Source: Trypanosoma brucei
Taxonomy: Eukaryota
Length of the DNA stretch: 64,000 nucleotides
Direction of reading: 5' to 3'
NCBI GenBank assembly: GCA_000002445.1
Contig: CM000208.1
Location: 576,001 to 640,000, forward strand
Position 1 is the stretch's first letter; the number at the start of each line of letters is the position of its first letter. Of the stretch, positions 1,452-45,721 are shown piece after piece. The notes beneath the pieces are model-generated. The model was not told the origin of the DNA. It did not search any database and saw only the letters and a program-made list of their open reading frames with translations. The position numbers and the translations under genes were made by a program.

Positions 1452-3218
1452 ATGTCCATTACACAAAGTGCACTCGGTCGCGAATGGGGTGTGGTGGCAT
1501 GTGGCTTTCTCGTTACGTACTACCGCGAGTTCACCAAGGAAGGGGAACCGCTAGCCCTCCTTGACATGTATGCCGACAACTCCCATGTGGTTTATGCGGA
1601 ATACAATGAAAATGTGGCACAAATCGTACGCGGCCGCCATGAGATCCTCCAACACCTTGAGAAGATGGACGCAGCGCTAGGGCGACGTAAGGTTGAGGTT
1701 CGCTTCGCCGACTTCAGCCCTATTGCGGGCGGCAGCGTGCTCATTGTAACTCAGGGTATTATGTACGTTCGTGGATCACGGAAAGTTTTCACTCAATCCT
1801 TCGTTCTCGCACCCACGCCAAATCGTAGCAATACATACCACATAGCAAGCGAATATTTTCGTGTGCTGCACGTGGAGATGGAACGCATTCCTGAAGGCAG
1901 TATCATAATGACACCTGTGCAGGTCGCTCAGCACCTTCTTGGCGAGCAAGAGAGGCGAAAGAGGGAAGAGGAAGCACGCGAGCATTTTCTGTTCCTTCAG
2001 AAGCAAAAAGAGGAGCAACAGCAACAGCAACAACAAATGCTACAGTGTGCGGATGCAGAGATGGTGAAACAACAGGAGAATGACCGCGCACTCGCTGCGG
2101 AAAATCAGAGTGAAGCGTGGGACAAGCACCCACGTGGACAGGACCGGCGGATGGGTAGGAAAGACTACAGAAACCGTGCACCTGCAGGGGCACGCAGTGA
2201 GGGTGTGGAAGAGAGGAAAGAGCGTGCCGAATGGGAGATGGGAAAACCCACCGAATCGAGGACAAATGAGGCTGAGGACGACACTGCAGGTGAGGGTAAC
2301 GAACGCAACCGATGGGAACAACCAAGGCGGAGTGAACCGCACAAACGTCCAGAGCGCGTTAAGAGGAATGAAGGGGGTCGGCGTGCAGAAGGCAATGATC
2401 AAAATGAGGTGGGACGCCCTGAACGAAAAGATCGCCGGGATGCGGAAAGAGAACCTCGGGATGGCGAAAGCCGCCGGGGTCATTGGGGCCGCAATGAAGA
2501 AAAGGTCGATAACGTGGATACCGCTGACAATACACGTGTAACCGAGGGAGACGCTGCCCGTTCCACAGGGGCTGCTGGAGCGGCTTCTGAAAGGACCCGC
2601 CGCAACACTTTCAACAACCGCCCGCGCGACCGATTTAGGAACCGTGAGCTGCAACAGGAACAACAACCCGCCGCCCCCGCCGATTCAGCGGCTGCCGTTC
2701 CTGCAACTTCCAGCGCTGCAGACAATAAAGGTGATGCCGGCAGGAACGATCATAAACCCCTCCCCCGCTCGGAAGCCAACAGAAGAGGTCCCGGAGGAAG
2801 CAAAGAGGCGAAGAACAACAAAAAAGAGGCGTGGGCCAGTGAGAAAAACGATGCCAACAATGGTGGCGCCGCTCCTGATGCTGCTGCGGCAGAGGAGAAC
2901 GTAACCCCCGCTGAACAACGGAAGAAGTTTCCACGGAGCAGGGCTGATAAAAAAATTGCCGGTGAAGGCACCAGACTGGAGCACAGGAAAGGTCCGACGG
3001 ACCATGTGCGGCTAATAGATGCACCAAAGGGCCAAAATGAACAAATTAGTGCTGCAATTAAGCGAATAACTGGTGAAGAACCAAAGAAAGTTGTTCCGTT
3101 TGGTCGCGGGAACGACATTGTGTGCCAATTAAGCACGGAATCAGCCGCCGAGGCTTTGTTGGAGAAACCGCCCGTGGTGAATGAGTGTGCACTCAGGGTG
3201 GCACGGTTCTATCCCTAG
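1452..3218 (+). CDS. NTF2-like domain protein with a long R/E/D/G-rich low-complexity region and a poly-Q tract (G3BP-like architecture, putative RNA-binding)
   Basis: ATG at 1452. The N-terminal ~130 aa match the NTF2 fold signature (FTQSFVLAP..YHIASEYFRV, compare G3BP FMQTFVLAP..FYVHNDIFRY). A Q7 run and an RD/RE-rich region follow. Antisense ORFs over the same span are low-complexity artefacts. Confidence 0.65.
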   Translation: MSITQSALGREWGVVACGFLVTYYREFTKEGEPLALLDMYADNSHVVYAEYNENVAQIVRGRHEILQHLEKMDAALGRRKVEVRFADFSPIAGGSVLIVTQGIMYVRGSRKVFTQSFVLAPTPNRSNTYHIASEYFRVLHVEMERIPEGSIIMTPVQVAQHLLGEQERRKREEEAREHFLFLQKQKEEQQQQQQQMLQCADAEMVKQQENDRALAAENQSEAWDKHPRGQDRRMGRKDYRNRAPAGARSEGVEERKERAEWEMGKPTESRTNEAEDDTAGEGNERNRWEQPRRSEPHKRPERVKRNEGGRRAEGNDQNEVGRPERKDRRDAEREPRDGESRRGHWGRNEEKVDNVDTADNTRVTEGDAARSTGAAGAASERTRRNTFNNRPRDRFRNRELQQEQQPAAPADSAAAVPATSSAADNKGDAGRNDHKPLPRSEANRRGPGGSKEAKNNKKEAWASEKNDANNGGAAPDAAAAEENVTPAEQRKKFPRSRADKKIAGEGTRLEHRKGPTDHVRLIDAPKGQNEQISAAIKRITGEEPKKVVPFGRGNDIVCQLSTESAAEALLEKPPVVNECALRVARFYP

Positions 3219-5198
3219 TTCTGAGAGGCACACACGTACATATTCGTGCCCACGTCTTAATCAAAGAACATAATGAAGCGAGAAAGGATAAAATAAATGG
3301 GCGATGTAACGGACAGCCGTACGCTCCGTACCACCAAGTGAAGGAAATGAGGCGGGCTAACAACTCCTCCGATTTTGCCTGATTTTCTCTTCCTCATTCT
3401 CGATGAAGATCAAATTCATTTTTTACTTTTGTGACCAGTAAACGTTTTTTTTGTTCTTACCTTTCCGGTTTTGAAATAAACTTGGCAGGAGCGGCCATAT
3501 CTTAGCAAGGTAGAGTGAGGAGGAGAGAAAGAAAATGATGAGTTCACTTGTTGGCTGTGATTCCCCCCACTTTCCCCTTCACTGTTACGTGCTTTAACAC
3601 ATATAATACCTTCTTCTATTTCTTTTTATTGTTACCCAACCCGTGTTTCTTCTTCACTCTGATCCACTAATAATTGAAGGAAGTTATAAACGTGATAAGT
3701 AAGTTTTTCATGCATTCTCATTGATGTTCAGCACATGGGTTGTTTGCTTACGGATAAACATACGCACATATACATTTTTTTTTTCCAAATCGTTTGGTTA
3801 CGTGATATTTGTTGTGGATAAGTGAAGGTGCTCCTTTCGTTATGTCACCAGTGGCGGCGGCCAGCACTCGCCTTCCCGTTGGTTGCGAGGAAGCGGGAAA
3901 ATGGAGATAAATATAAACGGAAAGGGAACAGTTGTCTTCCCATTGCTGTGGCGGCGAAAGGCGATACAAAGAAATAATAATAATAATGTTAAGTGTTAAT
4001 GGTGCAAAGTGAATGAGTTACCAGACCTTTTTTTGTATTGTGACGATGTTTTTTGTCCTCTCCGTGGTTCAAACATTTCAGGTATGTGCTTTTGAGCGAG
4101 GGATTATGTTTAATGAAGTCGGTACCGTAAACTTTTCTATGTGGTCTCATTGGCGGACCTTTCCGAACATTCTGCACTTCTAATTTTTCATATTGACTTC
4201 CTACTCCTACATGTATTATGTTTCAGTTGCACTTGTTTTTATTCATTACTTTCATTCTTTTCCATACTTCTTTATTTATATGTACCCTTCTTTCCTGTGA
4301 GGGCGACGTGTGTACGCCAGAGTTACACGAAGAAAGAAGGAAAGTCAACAACAAGAACAACAATAATTACACCCACCACCACAATACATATTTAATTATT
4401 TTGGCGTTAGTGAAGAGTACGCAGTGCTGAACGGCAGCAACCCAATCACCAGCAGCGCAACAGCATTTTTTTTGTACTTTATATTTTACATATTTTAATT
4501 ATATATTTACATTTATTTAAATCGCAATAGTGATTAAAATATCACATTATTATTATAGTTAGTTTCTAACCCAACGGGAAAGAAGTCGTGTAAAGAAAAG
4601 GTAATAACAAAATAAAAAGAAGGGAAGAGAAGGAGGAGAAAGCAAGGGAAAGCAAAGACTGCGTGAGAAGGGGGGGGAAGAAAAGGAGAAACTGAAGGGA
4701 TAACGTAGAAAACTGTGAGAAGAACAACAAAAACGAAATAAAACTGGACATCTGAAATACAATCAAGTTTGTGTGTTATCCATATTCCTGTATCGGATTT
4801 TGGAAAGAGGGAAAGCAAAATCAGCAAATAATACGAAGTGGGAGGCAAAAGAGGTGAAGGAAAAGTCCTTTTTTTTAAAAAAAAGGGGGTGCAAAATAAC
4901 CAGACCTGAGGGTAGAAGAAGAAGAAAAAAAAAGCGGTAGGTAATTTACGGTGCAAATCATACATAATTCTTTGTTGGGGTTTAGTACACTTTGCAAAGC
5001 AAAGCAAAGCAAAGCAACACCAACAAAGAAGAACCAAAGGGGACCACAAACACGCACGAGTGACGAGAAGAGAAGAGAAGGAAGGGGGATAATCCTAACA
5101 GGTTGGTGGTTGATAACGTGTTCAAACACCCTCAACTAAAAAAATAAAATAAAGTAATAGAACAGAAAAACGGAAGAGAAGAGAGGATTAACGAATCG

Positions 5199-6098
5199 AT
5201 GTCGATAGATGTGGTTCCTGCTACCGAAACCGCTGCAGCTGCAACCACTACCGCTACTTACATGGACAACATTATTTCTGTTCGAAAGGCCAACGCAAAG
5301 AAACTCGCTGGTGGTTATACTCAAACGAAACGAATAGCAGAAATTTGTTACTTCTCCTTAGCGGTTTGCCTTTGGATGAGAAACGTTGCAATTGTGGTAC
5401 TCTATTTACTGCACAGTAGCGAATCGTCTTCCAATCAGTTATTATGGAGCCCACTGATGATTCTGTCGGCTATGGTATTGTCTGACTTCATTAGCGGCGT
5501 GGCCCACTGGAGTTTTGATACGTGGGGAACCCCGGAGACATTTCTGTTCGGTAACTTTATACGCTCCTTCCGGGAGCATCACGTTAACCAAATGGCCATG
5601 ACCAAACACGATTTTATTGAGACGAATGCCGACACAACTTTACCCCTGATCCCTGTGTTACTGATCCAATTATACTTCCTAGGTTGCAATTCCAAGAATA
5701 ATTCAACATTCCGATACAACATCGACAATGACAACGCTGGTTTCCATGTATTTTTCCTTACTTTCGCACTTTTCATTGGTATGACTAATGAGCTTCACAA
5801 ATGGGCTCACCTGCCGGCGCCGCATCCCTTCGCTCGCCTGCTCATGTCGTGTAGAATTGTTCTCACACGTAAAAGTCACCGCAGGCATCATCGTGGGAGT
5901 TATGACCGCAGTTATTGCATTACAACTGGGTGGTTGAATGCCCCGCTTGACCGAGTTGACTTTTGGCGGAAGGCCGAGGCAGTTGTAACGGCATTGACGG
6001 GTGCGGTTCCACGGGCAAATGATAGGGAGTTGTTAGGCGTACGACATAAAGAAGAAACGGACGGGGAGGGTTGCAATGAGGAATTTGGAGGGTTGTGA
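5199..6098 (+). CDS. TMEM189/PEDS1 (CarF, 'Kua' lipid desaturase domain)-like membrane protein, candidate plasmanylethanolamine desaturase
   Basis: ATG at 5199. It is a multi-pass hydrophobic protein with histidine motifs (REHHVNQ, HKWAHL, HRRHHRGSYDRSYCITTGWLN) that I recognise from memory as characteristic of the TMEM189/CarF family; I did not run a search. Confidence 0.55.
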   Translation: MSIDVVPATETAAAATTTATYMDNIISVRKANAKKLAGGYTQTKRIAEICYFSLAVCLWMRNVAIVVLYLLHSSESSSNQLLWSPLMILSAMVLSDFISGVAHWSFDTWGTPETFLFGNFIRSFREHHVNQMAMTKHDFIETNADTTLPLIPVLLIQLYFLGCNSKNNSTFRYNIDNDNAGFHVFFLTFALFIGMTNELHKWAHLPAPHPFARLLMSCRIVLTRKSHRRHHRGSYDRSYCITTGWLNAPLDRVDFWRKAEAVVTALTGAVPRANDRELLGVRHKEETDGEGCNEEFGGL

Positions 6099-7858: not shown

Positions 7859-10213
7859 ATGAGTTCACGGGAGCCAACAGCAGCGAATGTGGAGGCGACT
7901 GAAGTGTGTGTGGTTGTGAGCCACGCCGCAAGGAAATTTCAGATTACACTACCGGCTGCCACGGCAACTGTGGGTGACATAAAAAATAGAATAGAGCAAA
8001 GCACTGGAGTGCCAGTGGAAAGGCAACGACTTTTGTTTGGTGCGCATACCCTTAAACAATACCGAAATGGGGATATTGAAAATGTGAGACTTATTGATAT
8101 CGTTGTGAAACCTAGTGGTCGTGCCAATGAAAAAGGGATCAAAGCACCCGCCGGCACCAACGACAATCCAAAGGAGGGAAGGGATGACAACAGCAGTAGC
8201 GGCAATGGGACAGTAACTTTAACGTCGGGCTCCGTTATTACGCTGCCGGTGATGTTGCTAGGAACCGCAGCATCAGCCCCTCATGTTGATGAAGAGGTGA
8301 CAGCTCAACTCCACCGGTTGGTTACAACTACGTTAGAGCATGACAGTCGATGGTTCCGATGCAGTTACGGCAAAGGATATGCGCGGCAAACCGCTTTTGT
8401 CTGTCGCACGTGTGTGGACAGTGGAGCTGCAGATCCCTCTCACGCCATTTGCTACGCCTGTGCAGAGGTGTGTCACACCGGTCATGACGTTGAGGAATGG
8501 GGCGTACGTTACTTCATGCGTTGTGACTGCTGTACCCCTGTTTGCTGGAGAGACATAAAGGTGAATGGAAGTAAGGAGGAGTGGGATAAAAAAGCTGTAA
8601 ACGACCACAGTAGCGAAGGTAATAGGGGCCAAGGGGATGAGAACTCAAAAATGTCCCGGGGGGTGTTGCCCCTGATACGGAAAGCCGAAGAGACGCGTCA
8701 GCTGAAGAGGTGCTGTTTTATATTAGACAGCGAGACAAGTGAACCTCCTGTGTCGAGAGAGGCTGTTCCACTAAACGGCAGAAACATTTACCCACGGTCG
8801 TCATATGCATGGTGTTTCTGCTGTTGTGAGGATGACTACCCACCGGATGGGACGAATGAGAGTGCAGGAGTTGTCTGTATGCTTTGTGCCACATGTTTCT
8901 GGAGTGCCCACATCACGCGTCTGCACACGGGCATGCTCAACCGCCTTCCCTGCCACGGGAATTTGGTGGAGGGTGATGTGGTGGCTTTCTACTGCGAAAC
9001 GTGTAAAGGTGTTGTTTGTGGACCCTGTCGCCTTCGCTGCCACGCCGACCACGAAGTGCAAAAGGACGTAGTGGTCGCGCCATACGAACAACACGGAAAG
9101 GGAGCTGTCGCAAATTCACGAGACCACACATTTAAATGTGAGTGTGGCTGTTTTTCCAGTGATAAAAGTGCTGGTGATGACGGGCTTAATGATAGAAATG
9201 CCTCACTGTTGCCACCAAATACAGCAGTGGACATTATGAACAGCGACTCACTCATTGGATTCATATGTGCATACTGCATGCAGGAACATCCATGGCTTGC
9301 GGACAGGGATTATCGTTACTGCTACGGCGGGAAATTGCCGGACCCCGTGCCAAAGGAACAACATAAACCAATAGTTTCGTGTAACTTTCCTCCTGACGCT
9401 GAGTGCCCCGACGACAGGTACCCTTTTCATGGTATGCTTTTCTCCGTTGATGCATTCACAGAGAAGATGACTTGCAAATGCGCACCGTGTCGTCAAGCAT
9501 ATGAGCGGTTTGCTCCTCGTACAACCACCACCGCCCAAGACGAGATGGCGGTGGAGCTCCATGAAGCTTGCGACCACTGCGGTCGGAACATACGTGACGA
9601 AAACGCATTTATGTGCCAAACTTGCGAGTTATGTTGTGGAAAGGCGTTCTTTGTTTGCCGCCGCTGCAACTCACTTCGGCTTGGTTTGAACCTGCCTACC
9701 CCGAGCAGTACAAACGATGAGTCGGTGCACGGGAATACGCAGGAGGGTAACACTGTCTCATCTACCGAACAAGAGGATGAACCCGCATCGTGGGACCATC
9801 CTTCAGATCACGTATTTCTTGAGGACACATGCGAGAACCTCTTTAACCTTTGCGGAATGTGTGTCGCACATCACCTTGGGCCGCAAGCGGAGGATCTTTC
9901 ATCTATGGACGCAGAATCCATAGCTGGTACTGTCATGACGGTGTTGCAACGTACGTTTGGTGAGGCCCCTCTCACATTCGATCCCAAGGACATTGCTCAA
10001 CACCACCAGTTGTTGCAGCAACAGAAAAAGAAACCAAATGCCAGCGCAAACACCCAGTCTTCATCCAATGAACGTACAGGACGGCGTGTATCACCAGCAT
10101 CGATAGCGAAGGGATGTAAACGTCCACGTATTGAAGAAAGTGAGGATGATAGCGACGTTCGCAACGGTGTGAGTAGCGGCAGTGGTGCGCATGACGGCGA
10201 CGATCAAATTTAG
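7859..10213 (+). CDS. Protein with an N-terminal ubiquitin-like domain and several UBR-box-type Cys/His zinc fingers, ending in a basic NLS-like tail
   Basis: ATG at 7859. Residues ~15-85 are Ubl-like (KFQITLPAATATVGDIKNRIEQSTGVPVERQRLLFGAHTLK). The first UBR-like box is RCSYGKGYARQTAFVCRTCV...HAICYACAEVCHTGHDV...FMRCDCC. Two more C/H-rich boxes follow (CHGNLVEGDVVAFYCETCKGVVCGPCRLRCHADHEV...FKCECGC; CDHCGRN...FMCQTCELCCGKAFFVCRRC). The C-terminus has KGCKRPRIEE. Confidence 0.7.
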   Translation: MSSREPTAANVEATEVCVVVSHAARKFQITLPAATATVGDIKNRIEQSTGVPVERQRLLFGAHTLKQYRNGDIENVRLIDIVVKPSGRANEKGIKAPAGTNDNPKEGRDDNSSSGNGTVTLTSGSVITLPVMLLGTAASAPHVDEEVTAQLHRLVTTTLEHDSRWFRCSYGKGYARQTAFVCRTCVDSGAADPSHAICYACAEVCHTGHDVEEWGVRYFMRCDCCTPVCWRDIKVNGSKEEWDKKAVNDHSSEGNRGQGDENSKMSRGVLPLIRKAEETRQLKRCCFILDSETSEPPVSREAVPLNGRNIYPRSSYAWCFCCCEDDYPPDGTNESAGVVCMLCATCFWSAHITRLHTGMLNRLPCHGNLVEGDVVAFYCETCKGVVCGPCRLRCHADHEVQKDVVVAPYEQHGKGAVANSRDHTFKCECGCFSSDKSAGDDGLNDRNASLLPPNTAVDIMNSDSLIGFICAYCMQEHPWLADRDYRYCYGGKLPDPVPKEQHKPIVSCNFPPDAECPDDRYPFHGMLFSVDAFTEKMTCKCAPCRQAYERFAPRTTTTAQDEMAVELHEACDHCGRNIRDENAFMCQTCELCCGKAFFVCRRCNSLRLGLNLPTPSSTNDESVHGNTQEGNTVSSTEQEDEPASWDHPSDHVFLEDTCENLFNLCGMCVAHHLGPQAEDLSSMDAESIAGTVMTVLQRTFGEAPLTFDPKDIAQHHQLLQQQKKKPNASANTQSSSNERTGRRVSPASIAKGCKRPRIEESEDDSDVRNGVSSGSGAHDGDDQI

Positions 10214-10980
10214 CGCTGCGCGTGGGTATGCTTTTCAGGTGATGAGCCATTAATTTCTTTTTTCGTATCTGGATTCTATCGGATGCTCAAACTCCTCTTC
10301 TAACGAAGGGAGCGGCCGAAAGTTGATGGGTAGTGGAAAACATTATTATATTAAGATGTTATCATCTTCAGTTTCTAACTCTCTACCCCTTTTAAGCATC
10401 GACATTACGGTGGGATCGTGTGTGTGTATGTGGTGTCGTTCGTTGTTCGGCAGATTCTCCCCCAGCTTATGCTGCCAAATAAAACTGCCCAATTACCCAC
10501 CGTTGCTCCCCCTTCCCCCTTCCCTGTAGCTTTGTCTGTATCTGTGACTGTAAGGGACCTGCCAACATTTGTTGTTTCCTTAATCTCTTCCTCTCCCTCT
10601 TTTTATCTGTTTGTCCTTTATGTTCAACACTGAGACTCACCAGGCGAGTTTCACCGAAGTCGGCTAAACATCGTTAACAATCGCAACCGTCTGCGCGTAG
10701 ACGCATAGGTGGACGGAAGAGTAGTACACTAAGGAGAAAATAGGGGGAGTTAGGCGCAGAAAAGGTGTTGAGCATTACAAAACTTTTCTTTCCTTAAGAT
10801 TCCCCTCAAATTTCTTTGATCTGAGGAACCAGTGCATTGAATCACTCATTTTGTAAGGAGAGAAAAAAAGAAAAAGAAAACCCGGACAAATACGGAGGTA
10901 AGTGCAAAGATCGTCACAAGAACCTTCGTAAAGCAGAAAGGGGGAGCGTGCCGGGACAGAAATTAACCAAGTGGGAACAA

Positions 10981-36826: not shown

Positions 36827-37966
36827 ATGACTGATGTCTCGCTTCGACCCTTAACAACTCATAAATCGCATCGTCACTCGCACAATACGGGAGTGCTGGA
36901 GTGTCAAACTATTTTGCAAGGGAGATTCAGATTGAATGGTCTGCTGGGAAAAGGAGGATTTGGAGAGGTATACGCCGGTGTGACGGTTTCCACGGGTGAA
37001 GAAGTGGCAGTGAAGATTGCACCAAATAGAAAACGTCATGTTTTGGCTCATGAAGCGGATGTCATGCGTTCCATACAAAGTGCTGTTGGTAATGCAGATC
37101 CGCCAGGTATACCCACACTGAAATTCTTTGGTCATGATGGTGATAACACTATTCTCGTCATGAGTGTTCACGGGCCGTCATTGGAGAAGCTCCGCTCTGA
37201 GATGGGAAGGCTTTCCCTCAAAACAGTAGTTATGCTTGGTATGGAAATGATTGACAGAATACAGTTCTTTCACTCCACTGGATTTATACACCGCGATATT
37301 AAACCAGGAAACTTCCTCATGGGCGTTGGAAAGCACGCGCATGAAGTGTATTTGATTGATTTTGGTCTCAGTACCCGTCACAGTCATTCCGGTGCTTGGC
37401 ATCGTGGAAGACCGACTGCAAGCAAGTTTGTTGGCACATCATGGTTTGCATCCCTTCGCACTCATCAGGGTTACGCACAGAGCCGCCGAGATGATTTGGA
37501 GCAGTTGGTTTATTCACTAATTTATCTCCACCGCGGAAAATTGCCTTGGACGGAGTTACGGCACACTGACCGAACTGAAAGGACACGGGCTATTGCAGCG
37601 GCGAAAGAAAATCTCTCTACCGCACAAATATGTGTGTGTTGCCCCCCTCAGTTTGAAGTGCTTCTCACATATGTACAGAAGCTTAAGTTTGATGAAATAC
37701 CGCGATATGAAATGTGTAGGAATATCATTTGGTCTATTCTCCATCCATCATCTGCAGGTCCGAAACCGAGTTTAACGTATGAATGGCTCACACCAGAGCG
37801 GGAATGCGAGACACCAAAGTGCGTGTTTCCGGCTCTGAGGGGATCAGAAACGAAACATGGAACTAAAAACGATGAAGTGGCAAGAAACGATAGTGAAGCA
37901 AAGAAAAGTTTGAGGAGACGAATGCCCACAGCGAGTTCTACATCTCATACCGCCGGAAAGGGATGA
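36827..37966 (+). CDS. Casein kinase 1-family Ser/Thr protein kinase
   Basis: LLGKGGFGEVY..VAVKI (Gly-loop and VAIK lysine). HSTGFIHRDIKPGNFLMG (catalytic loop, CK1-type). LIDFGLS (DFG). SIN-like motif region after the kinase domain. Confidence 0.85.
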   Translation: MTDVSLRPLTTHKSHRHSHNTGVLECQTILQGRFRLNGLLGKGGFGEVYAGVTVSTGEEVAVKIAPNRKRHVLAHEADVMRSIQSAVGNADPPGIPTLKFFGHDGDNTILVMSVHGPSLEKLRSEMGRLSLKTVVMLGMEMIDRIQFFHSTGFIHRDIKPGNFLMGVGKHAHEVYLIDFGLSTRHSHSGAWHRGRPTASKFVGTSWFASLRTHQGYAQSRRDDLEQLVYSLIYLHRGKLPWTELRHTDRTERTRAIAAAKENLSTAQICVCCPPQFEVLLTYVQKLKFDEIPRYEMCRNIIWSILHPSSAGPKPSLTYEWLTPERECETPKCVFPALRGSETKHGTKNDEVARNDSEAKKSLRRRMPTASSTSHTAGKG

Positions 37967-40549
37967 TGTTGGCTAATCATAATCATCATAATAATAATGA
38001 TGAGGAAGTATTGGGGCGCCACAAGTATTTTTTTTCCCCCCTTCTTTTTCCCCTTTCCCCTTTCCCCTTTCTTTCTTCTTCTTATTCGTCTTCTTCTTCT
38101 TGTAAAATGCGGCATGTAAGGGCAACCTCTCCACCACACATAGGCTGGAAGTTGTGTGAGACCGTGCGGCCTCCTTTTCCACCGTCTGTCTTTTGTTGCT
38201 TCTGTTTTGTTTTTTTTTGATGATGATGATGATGGTGTTGTTGTTGTTGTTGCCTCTCTTTCTTTTTTTTTTCTTCCCCTCCTCTTACCGCCTTTCCAAC
38301 ACTCATTTCACTTTCAATTTTTTTTTTCCTGTCTCTCCCTCTGTTTCTTTTCCCCACGAACGACAATTTTTTATTACCTGTTTTGTTAATCAGTTTGTGT
38401 AATGTGTGTACTCGTGTGATGGGGAAAGATGTGGTGATGCAAGACACGCAATGTATGCTACGGTTCTTTTTTTTTTATTATTTTCCAGATCATTGTTCTC
38501 AAACAACCAAATAAAAACAATTATATATATGTATAATATATATATAAAGAAAAAAAGAAAGTAAATAAGTTACACGGAGAAAGAAAAAAAAAGGAGGAAG
38601 GGAGGAGTACTCAGTTTACTTCCCGATTTTGCTCTCGAGTTTTATTTCCTTGTCTTTGCATTTTGTATACTTTTTTTTTACTTACTGTTGACACTCCCTT
38701 GTGGAGTGTTGATTTGTAAGGGAAAAAGACAAGGGGAGGAGGAGAAGAGGGAAAAATTAATTTTTTTTAAAAAAAAGAAAAAAAAAGCACCCTCATGTGT
38801 GTTGTCCTTTTTTTTTCTTTAATTCCCATGCTACTATTCCATACCCTCGTTATTATTATTATTATTATTAACAAAAGCGTAAAAGGTACCCAAGCGTAAG
38901 CGCAGTGCAACCATTTCTTTTTTTTCTTTTTTGTTCTAAATGTTTATGTCTCGCTCAACCACCCCATGTCCAGTGCACCTCATGAAGGAAGGGGTATTTA
39001 ATGAAAGAGAAAAAAAAAAAGTAAAGTGAAAAAAAAAGGAGAAAAGATAAAAAAAAAAAAAAAGGGAGGGAGGGAGAAAACAGGGCAAGAGAGAAAATGT
39101 GGAGTAGTTTTGTTTTTTTTTTTAAAAAAAAACAAGGAACGAAGAAGTGAAGGGGAAAAAGGAGAGAGAGAGAAATGTGAATATTTATGCTCCCGGTCTC
39201 TCTTTTCTTTTTTTTCTTTTTTTTTCTCCCGTCCTTTTTCCCTCCCTCCCTTTCTTGCCGCTTGTGGGGATTTTATGAGTTTATTTTGATTATTTTCTCC
39301 ATCCGCGTTTTCCTCATATGTTCTTAGGTGCTATGGGTTCTGATGTCATTCCTTCTTATTTTCCATACCACTTTCTCTTCTTATCATGTTGTTAATCTCA
39401 TGAGATATTTATATATTTATATATTTATGCCGATGAAGAACCGTTCGCCTTTTGTTGTTGTTGTTGTCGTTGGTGTCGTTTCAGATGTAACACCCTTCCC
39501 TATTGTCTTGCTTCCTCCGCTGTGAGGTCGCGTTTTTGTACACTTGTGGTTGTCTGTTTGTTTTTTGTTTTTTCTTTTTGTCGTTGTTGGGATTTTTTTT
39601 TTCTGTTACCACGGTTCCCATTAAAAAAATAAATATATATATATACTATACGATGTTACCACTTCGCTGATAATTTCTTCATATTCATTCGCGCATGTGG
39701 AAATCATATGGGTTATGTGTGAAGATCGGAACGACTTTTGTAACCGGTCCCTGCGTCTTATCTCAATTGTCTACTCTTGTCCCCTTTTTTAAAAATAAAC
39801 CTTCCAACCTCTACTTTCTGTATCACTGTTATAATTCTTGAATAAGCAAAGAAAATACAAACGACAAGCGAATGCGCAGTGAAATAGTTTTTCTTTTTAA
39901 ATCAAATAGAAAAGCAAGGGACTAAACTGTGTGGACCCGGCTGAGCACTGCGTAGGTGATTCTCTTTTATCGTACAACACAGGAGCAACCTTTTAAGAAG
40001 AAAGGACCGCCAGGTGCAGTTTGTAGAACTTCCATTCGCACAGGAGGGGAAAAAAGGAAGTGGATTATATTAGACTAAACCACGCGGGTCCCCCAGACAA
40101 AAGGGGAAAAGTAAGCCAAAATTCATCCGCTCGATATTTGAACGTCCCCCCCCCCCCAAATGATGGTGAACTTCCATCGATTTATGGTTGAAAAAGATAT
40201 TGCGTGAAGCAACACATCCCTCCACCACCAACACACAACTCCAGTAGGGAACGTTTGGTTGGATTGTGTAGGCATAAACGGCCTTTTGCCCGTACCGCCT
40301 TGAATTTTGTAATGCGGGTGTGCCTATGCTGAAGTGTTGTGCGGACCCATCTAAAAGGATGGCTGTCAAAAGAGTTGGATCCCCATCCATTTTCCATCGT
40401 TCGCACCCAGAGGCCAGTTGCACTATTTCCAATATGTGACAAAGGCGGTCTCTTCCCTATTTTTCCTGTTTCCTCTCCCCTTCTTCATTATTTGGTATTG
40501 ATGACGAGCGTGCCGTCGGTCCCACTCAAGACTGTAACCGTAAAAAACG

Positions 40550-40621
40550 AAATCAGTGTTAGTTCAAACCATACTTTCAGGTGAAATGGGTTTCTCCGCA
40601 TCTCCGTTTCATTGGATGGTG
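40550..40621. repeat. Left copy of a ~72-bp inverted repeat (partner at 42320..42391), immediately 5' of the retroposon signature
   Basis: AAATCAGTGTTAGTTCAAACCATACTTTCAGGTGAAATGGGTTTCTCCGCATCTCCGTTTCATTGGATGGTG matches the reverse complement of 42320-42391 with ~4 mismatches. Confidence 0.7.
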
Positions 40622-40632
40622 ACTAGTCTACA

Positions 40633-40710
40633 CCCTGGCGATGCCGGCCACCTCAACGTGGTGCCCAGGGTCCAGTGCCCCGTATCATCGGGGGAAGCCA
40701 AGAGCCAGCA
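40633..40710 (+). promoter_or_regulatory. Pr77-type retroposon 5' signature (internal promoter, reported HDV-like self-cleaving ribozyme)
   Basis: 77-79-nt block starting CCCTGGCG and ending AAGAGCCAGCA. From memory it matches the conserved first ~77 nt shared by ingi, RIME, L1Tc, NARTc, DIRE and SIDER. Confidence 0.65.
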
Positions 40711-40828
40711 GAGTTCCTTTCATGGGGAACACTTCTGTGCTCCGGCTACGGCATCATACAGCACAGGGATCAACAGCGTCTTGCTGGGACACCGTTTTTC
40801 ATTTGTCGGTCCTTGGGCACGTGCCAGC

Positions 40829-40897
40829 GTTGCCATCAGCAGTATCATCCGCACTAAGATGCTGCTGTCCGGTGATGTGGAAGAGAATCCCGGCCCG
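40829..40897 (+). other. Virus-like 2A ribosome-skipping peptide (..IIRTKMLLSGDVEENPGP) in frame with the retroposon ORF1
   Basis: The codons GAT GTG GAA GAG AAT CCC GGC CCG at 40874-40897 encode the canonical D(V/I)ExNPGP 2A motif. It lies 12 codons upstream of the ORF1 'MQW' position, the same arrangement described for L1Tc and ingi. Confidence 0.75.
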
Positions 40898-40909
40898 TCG
40901 TTGCGCCGG

Positions 40910-41080
40910 ATGCAGTGAAACTGCGCCGGGCTATCTCAAGGAAAGAGATTAGCACTCCACAAAACCCTTGTTGATAAGCGGATCGCCTTTTGTCTGTTGA
41001 GCGAGACAAGGATGACGCCTGGAGAGGCGGCTTGCTTTAGCGTTGCTGGTTACCTGGCTAGTCTACACTTTGCGTCCAAA
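40910..41080 (+). pseudogene. Retroposon ORF1 (APE-endonuclease N-terminus) pseudogene with a TGA stop at the third codon
   Basis: ATG CAG TGA AAC TGC GCC GGG CTA translates to M Q stop N C A G L. The intact ingi ORF reads MQWNCAGL. Translation stays ingi-like for ~55 codons and then breaks down. Confidence 0.6.
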
Positions 41081-41999
41081 TGGGTAGCGAGGAGAAACGA
41101 ATAATACGGCGACGAAGCGAGGCCCAGGGAAGGACCACTTCAATGCGGAAACGGATTCGGGAATCCCCTCGGACCAAATGGTTTTGCGGTGGGGAGGCGC
41201 CCCGCGGAATTCCCAGACATCGGGGGGAGTGCGTTATGGTATTCTGTTTTCCTCTCCTTTAGGTCCGCGTCCCGACGGCGAGTCATAATACAGAGGTGTC
41301 CAAGCGTGTTTTTTTTTCCTTTTAAGGAACCACTTGGGGACCGAAAATGGAGGTCGGTGGGGGCAAGAAACAAAGAAGTTGGGGGAGCGAATGGAAATTG
41401 CCATGAAGAAAGGAGAGGTGGAGGCGGTTGCCCACCAGACTCCTTCCGCTACCGCTTGGGTGCAAAACACAAAGTGTTCCTCGCATGCCGAAACACCGCG
41501 GCCTCGGGAGCGCGGAGTCGACGTCGCGTAAGGAATTTGAGAAAACGCTCCGGAAAGTTCAGGCGAAGGGAAGCCGTTGCGCCTCTGGTTGCCCAAACGC
41601 TTCGGTTTCAGAGCTGGCCACGGGGCCCGGTTTGGGCTCTTCAACGAACAAATTGTGAATCCGCCGCTCTAACGAGTGGAATCTGACCGCGGGTGGAATG
41701 ATGGAAAAGGGCACCGAGGCTTATATTTGCAGAATCCGGTGGCTTTTTAGCCCAAAACACACCTCAGGACGATGGGCAGGGTAATCGCTTGACGCCCCAG
41801 CTGGATGACGGTGGATTCGCCACCACTGCAACGATGGGAAGCGGGAACAAGGATGGGAAAGGTGTCAAGTAAATAAGGGATGAAAAAGCAAGCACAAACC
41901 TCCCATCGTGTAGGCGGCGTTCACGCGATGGGTGTGGAGACCTCGAGGAGATTTACAAACAGAGGCAACCACGGAACTGAACCAACTGAATGAAGCCAT

Positions 42000-42036
42000 C
42001 CCCCCCCCCATTGTGTGTGTGTGTGGGGGGGGGGGG
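42000..42036. repeat. C10-ATT-(GT)7-G12 palindromic homopolymer/dinucleotide tract (potential hairpin or slippage-prone site)
   Basis: The sequence CCCCCCCCCCATTGTGTGTGTGTGTGGGGGGGGGGGG is read directly from the window. Confidence 0.8.
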
Positions 42037-42319
42037 AAGGATGCAGAAAATAACGCGCGTGAAACAACCTTGCGGTGACGGAGAGTGCGCTAACATAAAA
42101 AAGAGGGGAAGGTGGTCTCAACAAGTTAAAAATAATGTAGGGAATACTGAGGCCATGTGCCTGTTTGTGGCACGCTGAAGGTGGCGAGGGAAATACATGG
42201 ACAGGTAAATTGGAGAGGGCAAATGCGGAAAAGTGAAGTGAGATGAAGTGAAGCCTCCGCCAGCATTCTTCGGTATGGCAGATACCAACAAATCAGCGGC
42301 TGCATTGGACGGGAAATGC

Positions 42320-42391
42320 CACCATCCAATGAAACGGAGATGCGGGGAAACCCATTTCCCCTAAAAGTATGGTTTGAACTAACAGTGATTT
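42320..42391. repeat. Right copy of the ~72-bp inverted repeat
   Basis: The reverse complement of CACCATCCAATGAAACGGAGATGCGGGGAAACCCATTTCCCCTAAAAGTATGGTTTGAACTAACAGTGATTT aligns to 40550-40621. Confidence 0.7.
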
Positions 42392-43945
42392 AGACGGCGC
42401 CCCCTTTCCGATCCCTGTTGAGACCTCATACCGCGGTTGGTGATGAGAGGATTCCTGACATTATATTTGTAGGCGGTCGCGGACGTTCCCCTTCTCACAG
42501 CCATGCCACGTCCCACTGTTTTTTTTTCACCTTATCCTCCACTGTGGGTGTTCGTTGTTTTTTTCTTTTTTCCCTTACTCTCCATTTTTTTTTTTTAAAG
42601 TTCCAATTATCCCTCTTTCTGGTACCGAAACCACGATATTCATTGTGCGCCTTAACCGAGAAACGGCTGCGCCACAGATGGAATCCATAGAAGTGGATGA
42701 AGCGGTTCAGCAGCATTTGCTAAACTGCGTGTCTTACGTGATGGAGTGCGCACAAACATCAAGAAACGCCAAAATCCTATCGAGGGGGGGGAAAGTGGGG
42801 GAAAAGGTGGAACACATTGTGGTACGAACTTCTCCAGAAGAACTGTAAGACAAAATGTCAAGAGAAACAAGGCGAAGCCAGTCGCGATGGCAGCAACCAC
42901 CATCTTCAAGAGCAAAAAAAAATTTTGTAAAGGGGGTATAAAAAGAAGCAAATGGACAATCCGTAACTTGAAAAACAGAAGTGTAACTATATAACTTTCA
43001 CCGGTGCCTCCAGTTTTTTTTTTCTTGTTTCTCGTGCATCCCTTCCTGACACACATGCACATTTTGATGTGCACGTTAGTTGCATTGCTGTGTAACACGA
43101 CCGCAGTAAAACAAAGTTCTGGCACCCACAAATGAAAATTGGGTAAAAACAGCAAGAACTTATATTCAAAAATGCCCACAGGCGTACTTATAGTCATTAC
43201 CTCAGACTTAATATAAGCGAATGCATCAATAAAGGTATACTGCCTTTCCCCCGACCTACGAGAGGCATTTCAGGTTTTCATACCCTTTACCAATAGCATT
43301 GAATGCTTTTTAATAATAATAAAATAATTCTCCACAGAAGCAAAAGGGGGGTTTATGTCACTTCGAACATCCTAATGCTTTCTCGCGGTCCTATAATTCA
43401 TACCCATAGCTTAGCTTAAGGAACCTCTACGAGAGAGGTGCGTCACTTTCAGCACGTTAATGCAGGCGGTTCGAATGTATAAATGAGACGTTGCCTTGCT
43501 AGTTATTGTTCCATGGGAGGATTATCTCCACTCATAACCCCTCGCCCCCCAAAAAACAACACACAAAGACACTGAGATTCACCACATTTGACAACATTCC
43601 CCCTAAAGGGTTTAAAATGTTGAATCCCTCTCGCTTCTGCACGCAGGTCCCGTGCTTGTAAGTACCGTGACCCCTAGCAACAGCTCCCGTGCCCTGCTTC
43701 GTGCAGATTAAGGTTTGCACAGTCGCTGCTGGCGGAGTTGTATCATCCCCCATTATGTACATTTATCTACGCATTACCGAGCACCTTCGCAATACATCCG
43801 GAGTTTTGGAAACTCGGTCACATAAAGTCAGCACGGACCCTCCCAGTCCCTACGCACTTCCCCTGTGGATCTTTTTGCTCTCCAGTGCCTTTGCGTTTTC
43901 TGCTCTTTCCAGACGGAGGCGCGGATCCAGCTGAGGTGGCACCAT

Positions 43946-45721
43946 TCACATTTGACGAGGGTTCACGGCCGCGTTGTCGTCAGTGGGGAGTTTCGGAAGT
44001 GGGGTCAATCTAAGCTTGTAATCCTCGTCATCGAAACAAACTTCTTCCCGCGTGGGGCAGATGATGCTGCCTTTCCAGAGGTGACGACCGAGGGGCTGCA
44101 CTGTAGCACCGGGTTTACACGTCTGCCAGCTGTGGTCTAGCAAAAAGCGAATCTGTAGCTCTTTGCCAGTGCAGTTCGTACGGACACAAACGTCACCAAT
44201 ATCTTTATTGGAAAACTTCAAATTGACACCCTTCACACATCGCGAGCCCTTTCCAACCTCACTGCCACGCAAAAACTTCGACTGACCATTGACGCAGTTA
44301 CCGCTGTTGTACTGAACCACCATCGGGCAATGGTCCATGAAACGGGACTTGCCACCAACCCGTGAATTTCTGAAGTAGCGGAACTCGGCGGGAAGTTCAG
44401 TTCGATGTGTACCTAGGGAACACTGGCCGAGTCCGAGACGGTCATGGGTACAAGTGAACAGACGGCTCTTCCATAAATGATCGCAGAACGTGTCGGGGTG
44501 CTTTGACTTTCCTTCCTGCAAGCATTTCTCCTGTAGAAAACTACATCCACGATTTAGGCCCCAACGCGTCTTCTCTGCGCGACTGAAATTGACGCGGTAG
44601 TGTCCCATACTTGCGAACACCCCTAACGACATCACAGTTAAATAATTCAAGTTCCCATAAGGGGCCATCACGTCCTCGACGGCATTGCGTTGCTCCAAGT
44701 GTGTTGCGAAAACGCCGGGGCCTCCTTCATTCTCCATTTCGATACCCGGAGCCGTCGAGCAATTGAAGTGCTTCCGCGCGACACGCTTCGCAACCTCAGA
44801 ATCGACCAACCACGAGGTTTTAAGTCCGCGAATGCCTCCTTTCTGTTTCATAATTCCCCTTCTTATGAGGATATCTGCTTGGAAGCCGAGAGCGTGTCCT
44901 AATTCGTGTGCGATAACTCGCACAAAGAAGTCAGTTTCGGCAACGTACTTGGGGGATATGTTGACAACGCCAGAAACCGGGCGGCCGTCAGTGAGCATTG
45001 CGCACACGGAAGCCCACGCCATATTCCCTATCGTTGGCCGAGCCGCCACGTATATACTAACATCACCTTCAAAACCATTGGTGTAGTGACCCTTGGGCAC
45101 CTTGAATAAGCTGCAGTATCCAGCGTATGAGGATGGTAAAACAATCCTCCGGTGATATCTCCTTACCAACAGGCGATCCGTGTGTAATTTGATTGCCTTT
45201 GGAATAGCGACCTGCACGATGACGCGCTTCTTGCGAACTGTGAGAACATCCCCCGCTGTACAAACAGTCGTCTTCCCACTGACGAGTATGCTACGGACAT
45301 CACCTGCCATCGTGCAGAAGCGGCTGGGGTCATTCAAGTCTTGCGTGTAAGCTCTGATGCGAATTGGTTTCCACCTGCTGTCAATCTCCCCTTGCCCGTA
45401 ATCATCAACGTTATTGGTGTATTTAGGTTTCTTATCTACGGATGCAGTTCTTGCACTAATCAAATCACCGCCAGTGGTACCCTTCGCTTCTGATTCAGGG
45501 GGCATAGTACCTACTATCGGCACATCATCTGGATTAATCGCAGAATGATGACTTCCGCACCAACCACGGGGCGTATCGCCGGTGCCTTCCTCTCCCCATT
45601 GTTCCTCTGGTGCTTCCAAATGTGTCGCTGATGCTTCCACGTGCACGTGTGCTCGCAAGTGGTGCGAGACGAAAGCGGCAAATATGCACCAAAAGATAGC
45701 GGTTCCTAACAGTTGGGTCAT
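43946..45721 (-). CDS. GP63/leishmanolysin (major surface protease, M8 zinc metalloprotease), apparently without a GPI-anchor signal
   Basis: Minus-strand 591-aa ORF. N-terminal hydrophobic signal-like segment (LLGTAIFWCIFAAFVSH). HEXXH zinc motif VIAHELGHALGF with M8-type surrounding sequence and many conserved Cys. The C-terminus (...TDDNAAVNPRQM) is hydrophilic. Coordinates follow the ORF track. Confidence 0.9.
   Translation of the reverse strand: MTQLLGTAIFWCIFAAFVSHHLRAHVHVEASATHLEAPEEQWGEEGTGDTPRGWCGSHHSAINPDDVPIVGTMPPESEAKGTTGGDLISARTASVDKKPKYTNNVDDYGQGEIDSRWKPIRIRAYTQDLNDPSRFCTMAGDVRSILVSGKTTVCTAGDVLTVRKKRVIVQVAIPKAIKLHTDRLLVRRYHRRIVLPSSYAGYCSLFKVPKGHYTNGFEGDVSIYVAARPTIGNMAWASVCAMLTDGRPVSGVVNISPKYVAETDFFVRVIAHELGHALGFQADILIRRGIMKQKGGIRGLKTSWLVDSEVAKRVARKHFNCSTAPGIEMENEGGPGVFATHLEQRNAVEDVMAPYGNLNYLTVMSLGVFASMGHYRVNFSRAEKTRWGLNRGCSFLQEKCLQEGKSKHPDTFCDHLWKSRLFTCTHDRLGLGQCSLGTHRTELPAEFRYFRNSRVGGKSRFMDHCPMVVQYNSGNCVNGQSKFLRGSEVGKGSRCVKGVNLKFSNKDIGDVCVRTNCTGKELQIRFLLDHSWQTCKPGATVQPLGRHLWKGSIICPTREEVCFDDEDYKLRLTPLPKLPTDDNAAVNPRQM

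What the first reader, a model, noticed from the sequence alone, without database searches (positions are those of the whole stretch)
5199..6098. Candidate plasmanylethanolamine desaturase (TMEM189/PEDS1/CarF-like) gene
The histidine-box pattern and the ITTGWLN-containing C-terminal segment look like the TMEM189/CarF lipid-desaturase family. Members of that family were recently shown to introduce the vinyl-ether bond of plasmalogens. Trypanosomatids are rich in ether lipids and plasmalogens, so this gene would be the obvious candidate for that step.
Basis: partly seen in the sequence, partly recalled or inferred. Interest (0 to 1): 0.5.

Follow-up and report, generated by a model that had tools for sequence, protein, structure and literature searches.

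The report
Trypanosoma brucei plasmalogen desaturase gene (PEDS1)

Summary
Window 5199..6098 (+) is a real 299-aa ORF. It is identical to T. brucei XP_822479.1, which GenBank still names "ubiquitin-conjugating enzyme variant Kua homologue". It matches Pfam PF10520 (Lipid_desat) end to end (E = 1.2e-60).

It keeps every residue shown by mutagenesis to matter in mouse/human PEDS1 and M. xanthus CarF:
- the eight universal histidines;
- the ninth, PEDS1-specific histidine (Tb H137), which is Arg in all six plant FAD4 proteins I fetched;
- Asp107 and Phe124.

A profile of non-kinetoplastid PEDS1 scores it 258 bits; a FAD4 profile scores 74. A neighbour-joining tree puts it in the PEDS1 group. A confident AlphaFold2 model (pLDDT 89) shows four long helices with all nine histidines on one side.

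The gene sits in the same NTF2 – desaturase – ubiquitin-like – Vps35 order as its T. cruzi counterpart. A T. cruzi PEDS1 homologue restored plasmalogen synthesis in ΔcarF M. xanthus (PNAS 2026).

T. brucei makes alk-enyl-acyl PE and has the upstream ether-lipid enzymes. XP_822479 was already listed as T. brucei PEDS1 in a 2024 paper.

Verdict: observation confirmed, interpretation supported, already known. I found no T. brucei-specific experiment.

The parts
5199..6098 (+). Complete coding sequence of the T. brucei PEDS1 orthologue (299 aa plus stop codon)
   Evidence: ORF list. Identical to XP_822479.1. Pfam PF10520 E = 1.2e-60.
5472..6017 (+). PF10520 Lipid_desat domain (aa 92-273)
   Evidence: profile positions 1-174 of 175 are matched.
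5340..5414 (+). Predicted transmembrane helix 1 (about aa 48-72)
   Evidence: Hydropathy peak 1.96. AlphaFold2 helix 42-72.
5436..5504 (+). Predicted transmembrane helix 2 (about aa 80-102)
   Evidence: Hydropathy peak 1.65. AlphaFold2 helix 78-109.
5505..5519 (+). First histidine motif, H103-W-S-F-D107 (mouse PEDS1 H96 and D100)
   Evidence: The essential role of H96 and D100 is from PMC8960569.
5568..5582 (+). F124-R-E-H127-H128 (mouse F118, H121, H122)
   Evidence: Literature.
5604..5627 (+). K-H137-D-F-I-E-T-N, containing the ninth, PEDS1-specific histidine (mouse H131, CarF H113)
   Evidence: His in all 16 PEDS1-like sequences, Arg in all 6 FAD4 proteins, Gly in an Acidimicrobiia homologue. 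Literature.
5634..5693 (+). Predicted transmembrane helix 3 (about aa 146-165)
   Evidence: Hydropathy 1.47. AlphaFold2 helix 150-162.
5739..5795 (+). Predicted transmembrane helix 4 (about aa 181-199)
   Evidence: AlphaFold2 helix 180-204. It falls below the 19-residue hydropathy threshold used.
5796..5810 (+). H200-K-W-A-H204 (mouse H187, H191)
5877..5891 (+). H227-R-R-H230-H231 (mouse H215, H218, H219)
5919..5939 (+).
   Evidence: I241, T242, G244, W245, L246 and N247 are invariant in alignment A1. In the wider alignment A2, which includes FAD4, only G244 and N247 stay invariant and I241, T242 and W245 are at least 90% conserved.
1452..3218 (+). Upstream neighbour, an NTF2-domain protein. 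It is a conserved gene-order marker, not part of the enzyme.
   Evidence: Pfam. The same neighbour is present in T. cruzi and T. vivax.
7859..10213 (+). Downstream neighbour, a protein with a weak ubiquitin-like domain (gene-order marker)
   Evidence: Pfam. T. cruzi locus.
10837..13782 (+). Vps35 retromer subunit gene (gene-order marker)
   Evidence: Pfam E = 5.8e-213. T. cruzi and T. vivax loci.

Best explanation
The ORF encodes the Trypanosoma brucei orthologue of plasmanylethanolamine desaturase (PEDS1/TMEM189/CarF, EC 1.14.19.77). It is an integral membrane protein with four transmembrane helices. Nine histidines, helped by Asp107 and Phe124, lie on one (by analogy cytosolic) face and hold a di-iron centre. 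With O2 and electrons, in mammals delivered through cytochrome b5, it removes two hydrogens from C1'-C2' of the sn-1 alkyl chain of 1-O-alkyl-2-acyl-glycerophosphoethanolamine. This forms the vinyl-ether bond of plasmenylethanolamine. It would act after the glycosomal enzymes TbDAT and TbADS and the ethanolamine phosphotransferase TbEPT, which make ether-type PE. Shown here: family membership, conservation of all residues found essential by mutagenesis, PEDS1 rather than FAD4 affinity, predicted fold and topology, and positional orthology to the T. cruzi gene. Taken from published work on relatives, or inferred: the chemistry, the metal, the electron donor, the ER location and the in vivo substrate in T. 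brucei.
Confidence: 0.92

Rival explanations
1. It is a FAD4-type desaturase, the other characterised branch of PF10520. FAD4 makes a Δ3-trans double bond in the sn-2 palmitate of phosphatidylglycerol rather than a vinyl ether.
For: It belongs to the same Pfam family, and the eight universal histidines are shared. A FAD4 profile still scores 74 bits.
Against: The diagnostic position is His137 here, not the Arg seen in all six FAD4 proteins (rule). Domain identity is 29-32% to FAD4 against 42-46% to metazoan PEDS1, and the tree separates the two groups. The PEDS1 profile beats the FAD4 profile 258 to 74 bits. FAD4 is a chloroplast enzyme and has been found only in plastid-bearing lineages; that trypanosomes lack a plastid is established knowledge.
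Confidence: 0.02
2. It is what GenBank calls it: a 'ubiquitin-conjugating enzyme variant Kua homologue', meaning a protein of the ubiquitin system or a localisation domain for one.
For: Names given by the sources.
Against: Pfam finds only PF10520 and no UBC/UEV domain. The name comes from a rare human Kua-UEV1 read-through transcript and from the former Pfam title 'Kua-UEV1_localn'.
Confidence: 0.01
3. It is a PEDS1-clade protein whose activity in T. brucei differs from the canonical one. Examples would be acting on ether PC, PS or PI as well as PE, or being redundant or inactive in some life-cycle stages.
For: No direct T. brucei data were found. T. brucei has large ether PC pools as well as ether PE pools. 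T. congolense keeps an intact copy although its ether lipids are very low, so retention of the gene does not track ether-lipid abundance in a simple way.
Against: All catalytic residues are conserved. The tested T. cruzi and L. major homologues make a PE plasmalogen in M. xanthus. Plasmalogen species in T. brucei were resolved in the PE class.
Confidence: 0.05

Closest known systems
Trypanosoma cruzi and Leishmania major PEDS1 (validated in PNAS 2026, PMC13012113)
   Same: It is 62% identical to T. cruzi P0005 and 55% to a Leishmania orthologue. All 11 key residues are the same. The T. cruzi locus has the same gene order, NTF2 – desaturase – ubiquitin-like – Vps35.
   Different: The T. brucei protein has about 11 extra N-terminal residues (Ala/Thr-rich) and an acidic C-terminal tail of about 20 residues. 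Both have low model confidence. It has not been tested itself.
Mammalian PEDS1/TMEM189 (EC 1.14.19.77)
   Same: PF10520 domain, nine histidines plus Asp and Phe at equivalent positions, and the four-helix plan. Domain identity is 42-46% to metazoan PEDS1.
   Different: The N-terminus and the loop between helices 3 and 4 are divergent. The human sequence I aligned was recalled from memory and checked only by its agreement with published residue numbers, so the database-derived metazoan sequences P0077 and P0105 carry the weight.
Myxococcus xanthus CarF
   Same: The best NCBIfam match is the CarF equivalog model, with aa 27-275 aligned to model positions 8-238 of 269. The requirement for nine histidines and the four-helix topology are as described for CarF.
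   Different: The score is below the equivalog cut-off (165 against 500 bits).
Plant FAD4 (palmitoyl-[glycerolipid] 3-(E)-desaturase)
   Same: Same Pfam family and the same eight universal histidines.
   Different: Arg replaces the ninth His. Identity is 29-32%, and FAD4 forms a separate clade. Published work gives it a different substrate and a chloroplast location.
Membrane di-iron desaturases and hydroxylases with solved structures (Scs7p, SCD1)
   Different: Only 12-13% identity, a different arrangement of the histidine motifs, and no sequence-level match to any solved structure.

Membership tests
PEDS1/TMEM189/CarF plasmanylethanolamine desaturase | PF10520 (Lipid_desat) domain above the Pfam gathering score | tested here: met
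   205 bits against a cut-off of 26.4, E = 1.2e-60, profile positions 1-174 of 175.
PEDS1/TMEM189/CarF plasmanylethanolamine desaturase | Eight universally conserved, essential histidines (mouse H96, H121, H122, H187, H191, H215, H218, H219) | tested here: met
   Tb H103, H127, H128, H200, H204, H227, H230 and H231 align with them and are invariant in 66 sequences.
PEDS1/TMEM189/CarF plasmanylethanolamine desaturase | Ninth histidine specific to PEDS1 (mouse H131, CarF H113), which is Arg in plant FAD4 | tested here: met
   Tb H137. It is His in all PEDS1-like sequences, Arg in 6 of 6 FAD4 proteins and Gly in an Acidimicrobiia homologue.
PEDS1/TMEM189/CarF plasmanylethanolamine desaturase | Asp (mouse D100) and Phe (mouse F118) that support the metal-binding histidines | tested here: met
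   Tb D107 and F124.
PEDS1/TMEM189/CarF plasmanylethanolamine desaturase | Four transmembrane helices with all the key histidines on one side | tested here: met
   This is a prediction only. AlphaFold2 helices 42-72, 78-109, 150-162 and 180-204 at pLDDT 89, and hydropathy. With four spans, all nine histidines fall in the loop between helices 2 and 3, at helix ends, or in the C-terminal region, as found by experiment for CarF.
PEDS1/TMEM189/CarF plasmanylethanolamine desaturase | Groups with PEDS1 rather than FAD4 in a tree and by profile score | tested here: met
   Neighbour-joining tree. 258 bits for the PEDS1 profile against 74 bits for the FAD4 profile. Agrees with the published phylogeny of kinetoplastid PEDS1.
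PEDS1/TMEM189/CarF plasmanylethanolamine desaturase | Orthology to a member validated by experiment | tested here: met
   62% identity and conserved gene order with T. cruzi P0005. A T. cruzi homologue complemented ΔcarF. I could not check that the tested construct has the P0005 sequence.
PEDS1/TMEM189/CarF plasmanylethanolamine desaturase | Reaches the NCBIfam equivalog cut-off for CarF (NF045946) | tested here: not met
   165 bits against 500. This is NCBI's curated naming threshold, and NCBIfam is used to annotate bacterial and archaeal genomes. It is not a biochemical criterion.
PEDS1/TMEM189/CarF plasmanylethanolamine desaturase | The organism makes plasmalogens and has the upstream ether-lipid enzymes | not testable with these tools
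   Literature only. Alk-enyl-acyl PE has been resolved in T. brucei. TbDAT, TbADS and TbEPT are described.
PEDS1/TMEM189/CarF plasmanylethanolamine desaturase | Δ1' desaturase activity on plasmanylethanolamine | not testable with these tools
   Needs a knockout or heterologous expression followed by lipid analysis.
FAD4 (Δ3-trans palmitate desaturase of phosphatidylglycerol) | Arg at the position of the ninth His, and clustering with plant and algal FAD4 | tested here: not met
   His137. Separate clade with 29-32% identity. 74 bits on the FAD4 profile, where a left-out FAD4 scores 540.
Ubiquitin-conjugating enzyme variant (UEV/UBC), as named in GenBank | UBC/UEV catalytic-core fold domain | tested here: not met
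   No such Pfam hit even at E up to 1.
Membrane-bound di-iron fatty acid desaturase/hydroxylase fold (SCD1, Scs7p) | Structural similarity to solved members | tested here: inconclusive

The most novel reading that the evidence does not exclude
The T. brucei enzyme could have a role beyond textbook PE-plasmalogen synthesis. It might desaturate other ether phospholipid classes, or supply the vinyl-ether lipids enriched in flagellar, raft-like membranes. Because TbDAT is dispensable in procyclic forms, a clean PEDS1 knockout would separate for the first time what vinyl-ether lipids do in a trypanosome from what alkyl-ether lipids do. T. congolense and T. vivax keep intact copies in the same gene order, even though T. 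congolense has very low ether lipids, which hints that the gene is retained for a reason not explained by bulk ether-lipid content.
Probability: 0.07. Interest if true: 0.5.

Novelty: already known. Interest (0 to 1): 0.12.

Why it matters
Plasmalogens are major phospholipids of trypanosomatids, and the enzyme that makes their defining bond went unidentified in any organism until 2019-2020. Pinning the step to this gene gives T. brucei researchers a precise genetic handle for removing vinyl-ether lipids while leaving alkyl-ether lipids in place. That assignment has already been made in print, for this accession by sequence and for T. cruzi and L. major by experiment. What this analysis adds is small. 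It confirms the assignment independently. It shows that the public name ('Kua homologue') is a misnomer that should be replaced. It also shows that T. vivax does carry an orthologue in the same gene order, contrary to one published survey.

Tried and rejected
- **Solved structures.** A sequence search found no relative; only chance nucleophosmin hits with E above 0.1.
- **Genome-contig scan.** I ran it with the single protein instead of an alignment. That locus still served as an example of a homologue without the ninth His.
- **Structure prediction, first attempt.** I repeated it with database sequences only.
- **afdb50 fold library.** Not available, so I made no structural comparison with AlphaFold models of PEDS1 or FAD4.
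- **Supplementary tables of the PNAS 2026 paper.** Not held, so I could not check the accession of the tested T. cruzi construct or whether T. brucei is in its dataset.
- **Literature searches.** Searches for a T. brucei-specific study of this gene ('PEDS1' with 'brucei'; 'variant Kua' with 'Trypanosoma') found none.
- **PMC3259767 (Signorell 2008).** Not held.
- **Second copy.** I looked for a paralogue in the window and found none.
- **tRNA scan.** It found no tRNA genes in the window.
- **Rejected readings.** FAD4, a UEV/ubiquitin function and a chance ORF are rejected for the reasons given under the rival explanations.

Full report
**1. The observation**

The ORF finder lists an ATG-initiated ORF at exactly 5199..6098 on the + strand, 299 aa with the stop codon included.
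- H103-WSF-D107
- F124-RE-H127-H128
- K-H137-DFIETN
- H200-KWA-H204
- H227-RR-H230-H231
- ITTGWLN at aa 241-247 (nt 5919-5939)

The resemblance is not a chance pattern. Pfam PF10520 (Lipid_desat) scores 205 bits, E = 1.2e-60, against a gathering score of 26.4. Residues 92-273 cover profile positions 1-174 of 175. There is no second copy in the window.

**2. Identity of the sequence**

An exact-sequence look-up shows the protein is identical over its full length to XP_822479.1/EAN77651.1 of Trypanosoma brucei brucei TREU927 and to a T. equiperdum entry. The T. b. gambiense protein is in the same 90% cluster. The sources name it [quoted passage not shown].

Pfam finds no UBC/UEV domain in it. 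The name is a legacy of a rare human Kua-UEV1 read-through transcript and of the former Pfam title "Kua-UEV1_localn" (PMC9131029).

The closest named relatives are the single-copy proteins of T. congolense (65% identity), T. vivax (63%), T. cruzi (62%) and Leishmania (about 50-55%). Beyond those come Naegleria, amoebozoan and metazoan "plasmanylethanolamine desaturase" proteins at about 35-42%.

**3. PEDS1 or FAD4?**

PF10520 has two characterised branches:
- PEDS1/TMEM189/CarF, which makes the vinyl-ether bond of plasmalogens.
- Plant FAD4, which makes a Δ3-trans double bond in the sn-2 palmitate of chloroplast phosphatidylglycerol.

Published mutagenesis defines the residues that matter (PMC8960569; PMC9131029):
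- Eight histidines conserved in both branches are essential (mouse H96, H121, H122, H187, H191, H215, H218, H219).
- A ninth histidine (mouse H131, CarF H113) is conserved in PEDS1 but is usually Arg in plants, and is required or strongly required.
- D100 is essential, and the F118A mutant keeps 6% activity.

I fetched real FAD4 proteins from the database, including the three Arabidopsis paralogues. I aligned them with kinetoplastid, heterolobosean, amoebozoan and metazoan PEDS1-like proteins. The T. brucei protein has the expected residue at all 11 positions. At the diagnostic ninth position it has His137, as do all 16 PEDS1-like sequences. All six FAD4 proteins have Arg there, and an Acidimicrobiia homologue has Gly.

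Further comparisons agree:
- Domain identity is 42-46% to metazoan PEDS1 and 29-32% to FAD4. A neighbour-joining tree puts the protein beside T. congolense within a trypanosomatid branch of the PEDS1 group, with FAD4 as a separate clade.
- A profile built only from non-kinetoplastid PEDS1 scores the protein 258 bits, and a FAD4 profile scores it 74 bits. A left-out FAD4 control scores 540 on the FAD4 profile and 116 on the PEDS1 profile.
- This matches the published phylogeny, in which Discoba PEDS1 groups with Amorphea PEDS1 and myxobacterial CarF, apart from FAD4 (PMC13012113).

One caveat applies. The human sequence in alignment A1 and in the tree was recalled from memory. It agrees with the published human numbering at all 11 positions. 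I treat it only as a lead; the conclusions rest on the database-derived sequences.

**4. Fold and topology**

An AlphaFold2 model built on a 66-sequence alignment is confident: mean pLDDT 89 and pTM 0.84. Only the first few and last dozen residues are poorly modelled.

It has four long helices (42-72, 78-109, 150-162, 180-204) that coincide with the hydrophobic segments. With four spans, all nine histidines lie on one side: at the end of helix 2, in the loop between helices 2 and 3, at the end of helix 4 and in the C-terminal region. This is the arrangement shown by experiment for CarF.

**5. Genomic context and orthology**

The gene lies in a run of + strand genes, as expected for a trypanosomatid polycistronic unit:

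| Window position | Gene |
|---|---|
| 1452..3218 | NTF2-domain protein |
| 5199..6098 | the desaturase |
| 7859..10213 | protein with a weak ubiquitin-like domain |
| 10837..13782 | Vps35 |

The T. cruzi orthologue P0005 sits in the same order (NTF2 – Lipid_desat – ubiquitin-like – one extra gene – Vps35). So does the T. vivax orthologue. The T. brucei gene is thus the positional orthologue of the T. cruzi gene.

**6. What is already known**

- Heliyon 2024 (PMC11225845) lists T. brucei XP_822479, this very protein, among the PEDS1 sequences in its tree. It states that the eight histidines are conserved in excavate sequences.
- PNAS 2026 (PMC13012113) found PEDS1 in 10 of 15 kinetoplastid taxa. 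It showed that FLAG-tagged T. cruzi and L. major homologues restore the plasmalogen MxVEPE and the light response in M. xanthus ΔcarF. The T. cruzi protein worked about as well as CarF itself.
- T. brucei contains alk-enyl-acyl (plasmalogen) PE species resolved by LC-MS (PMC4582118).
- Its ether-lipid pathway is characterised: TbDAT and TbADS in glycosomes, and TbEPT for ether-type PE.

I found no study that tests the T. brucei protein directly.

**7. Mechanism**

Shown here:
- family membership;
- conservation of all residues found essential by mutagenesis;
- PEDS1 rather than FAD4 affinity;
- predicted four-helix topology;
- positional orthology.

Inferred from the characterised relatives:
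- The nine histidines, supported by D107 and F124, hold a di-iron centre on the cytosolic face.
- With O2 and electrons, supplied through cytochrome b5 in mammals, the centre desaturates C1'-C2' of the sn-1 alkyl chain of plasmanylethanolamine to give plasmenylethanolamine.
- The enzyme acts in the ER, after TbEPT.

I put the probability that this is a functional PEDS1 at about 0.92.

**8. Rival explanations**

| Rival | Probability | Why disfavoured |
|---|---|---|
| FAD4-type activity | about 0.02 | The ninth-His test, the profile scores, the tree and the lack of a plastid all contradict it. |
| Ubiquitin-system role, as the public name implies | about 0.01 | The domain content contradicts it. 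|
| PEDS1-clade protein with altered head-group range or stage-limited role | about 0.05 | Cannot be excluded without lipidomics of a mutant. |

**9. Verdict**

The finding is already known, so interest is low. The residual value is that the public annotation is wrong and no T. brucei experiment appears to exist.

**10. Seen in passing**

- T. vivax carries an intact PEDS1 in the same gene order. PNAS 2026 states that T. vivax lacks all four pathway enzymes.
- Phytomonas sp. EM1 also has an intact homologue; that paper reports PEDS1 lost in Phytomonas sp. Hart1.
- T. congolense retains an intact copy, although its ether phospholipids are reported as nearly absent.

Noticed in passing
L004 8001-8858 (T. 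vivax, GCA_021307395.1 contig SOPI01000304.1); protein P0003: T. vivax has a full-length PF10520 protein with all 11 key PEDS1 residues, in the same NTF2 – desaturase – ... – Vps35 gene order. PNAS 2026 (PMC13012113) states that T. vivax lacks all four plasmalogen-pathway enzymes. The absence is probably a gap in the proteome set that survey used.
   Followed up: partly
protein P0028 (Phytomonas sp. EM1): Phytomonas sp. EM1 encodes an intact PEDS1-like protein with all nine histidines plus Asp and Phe. The PNAS 2026 survey reports PEDS1 as lost in Phytomonas sp. Hart1. This could be a difference between strains or an annotation gap.
   Followed up: no
protein P0002 (T. congolense TCIL3000_10_1860): T. 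congolense keeps an apparently intact PEDS1 (74% domain identity, all key residues). A 2026 lipidomics paper (PMC13645232) reports that ether phospholipids are nearly absent in this species and that DAT transcripts are undetectable. An enzyme retained with little substrate is unexplained.
   Followed up: no
window 5199-6098: The public name of this protein (XP_822479.1 and its relatives), 'ubiquitin-conjugating enzyme variant Kua homologue', is a legacy misnomer. The protein has no UBC/UEV domain.
   Followed up: yes
L001 2791-3507 (Acidimicrobiia MAG, JBFWVD010000050.1): A bacterial PF10520 homologue (38% identity over aa 95-277) keeps the eight universal histidines plus Asp and Phe, but has Gly at the PEDS1-specific ninth-His position. 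It is therefore probably not a plasmanylethanolamine desaturase. Its function is unknown.
   Followed up: partly
window 37966-43946 and 55113-61275: The direction of the genes changes twice. Genes run on the + strand up to about 37966, on the - strand from 43946 to 55113, and on the + strand again from 61275. The - strand block holds a leishmanolysin/GP63-type peptidase, a receptor-type adenylate cyclase and a metacaspase. No tRNA genes were found anywhere in the window.
   Followed up: partly
window 15366-16889, 21069-22514, 22941-24086, 24385-25359: Four + strand ORFs of 324-507 aa in the same gene run have no Pfam match at E up to 0.001. I did not examine them further.
   Followed up: no
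window 3219-5198: The gap upstream of the gene is about 2 kb, which seems long to me. It contains pyrimidine-rich tracts (about 4160-4300), which could be candidate trans-splicing signals, followed by a long purine-rich stretch (about 4570-4900) and a short (GCAAA)n run near 4993-5015. I did not map the splice-acceptor site.
   Followed up: no
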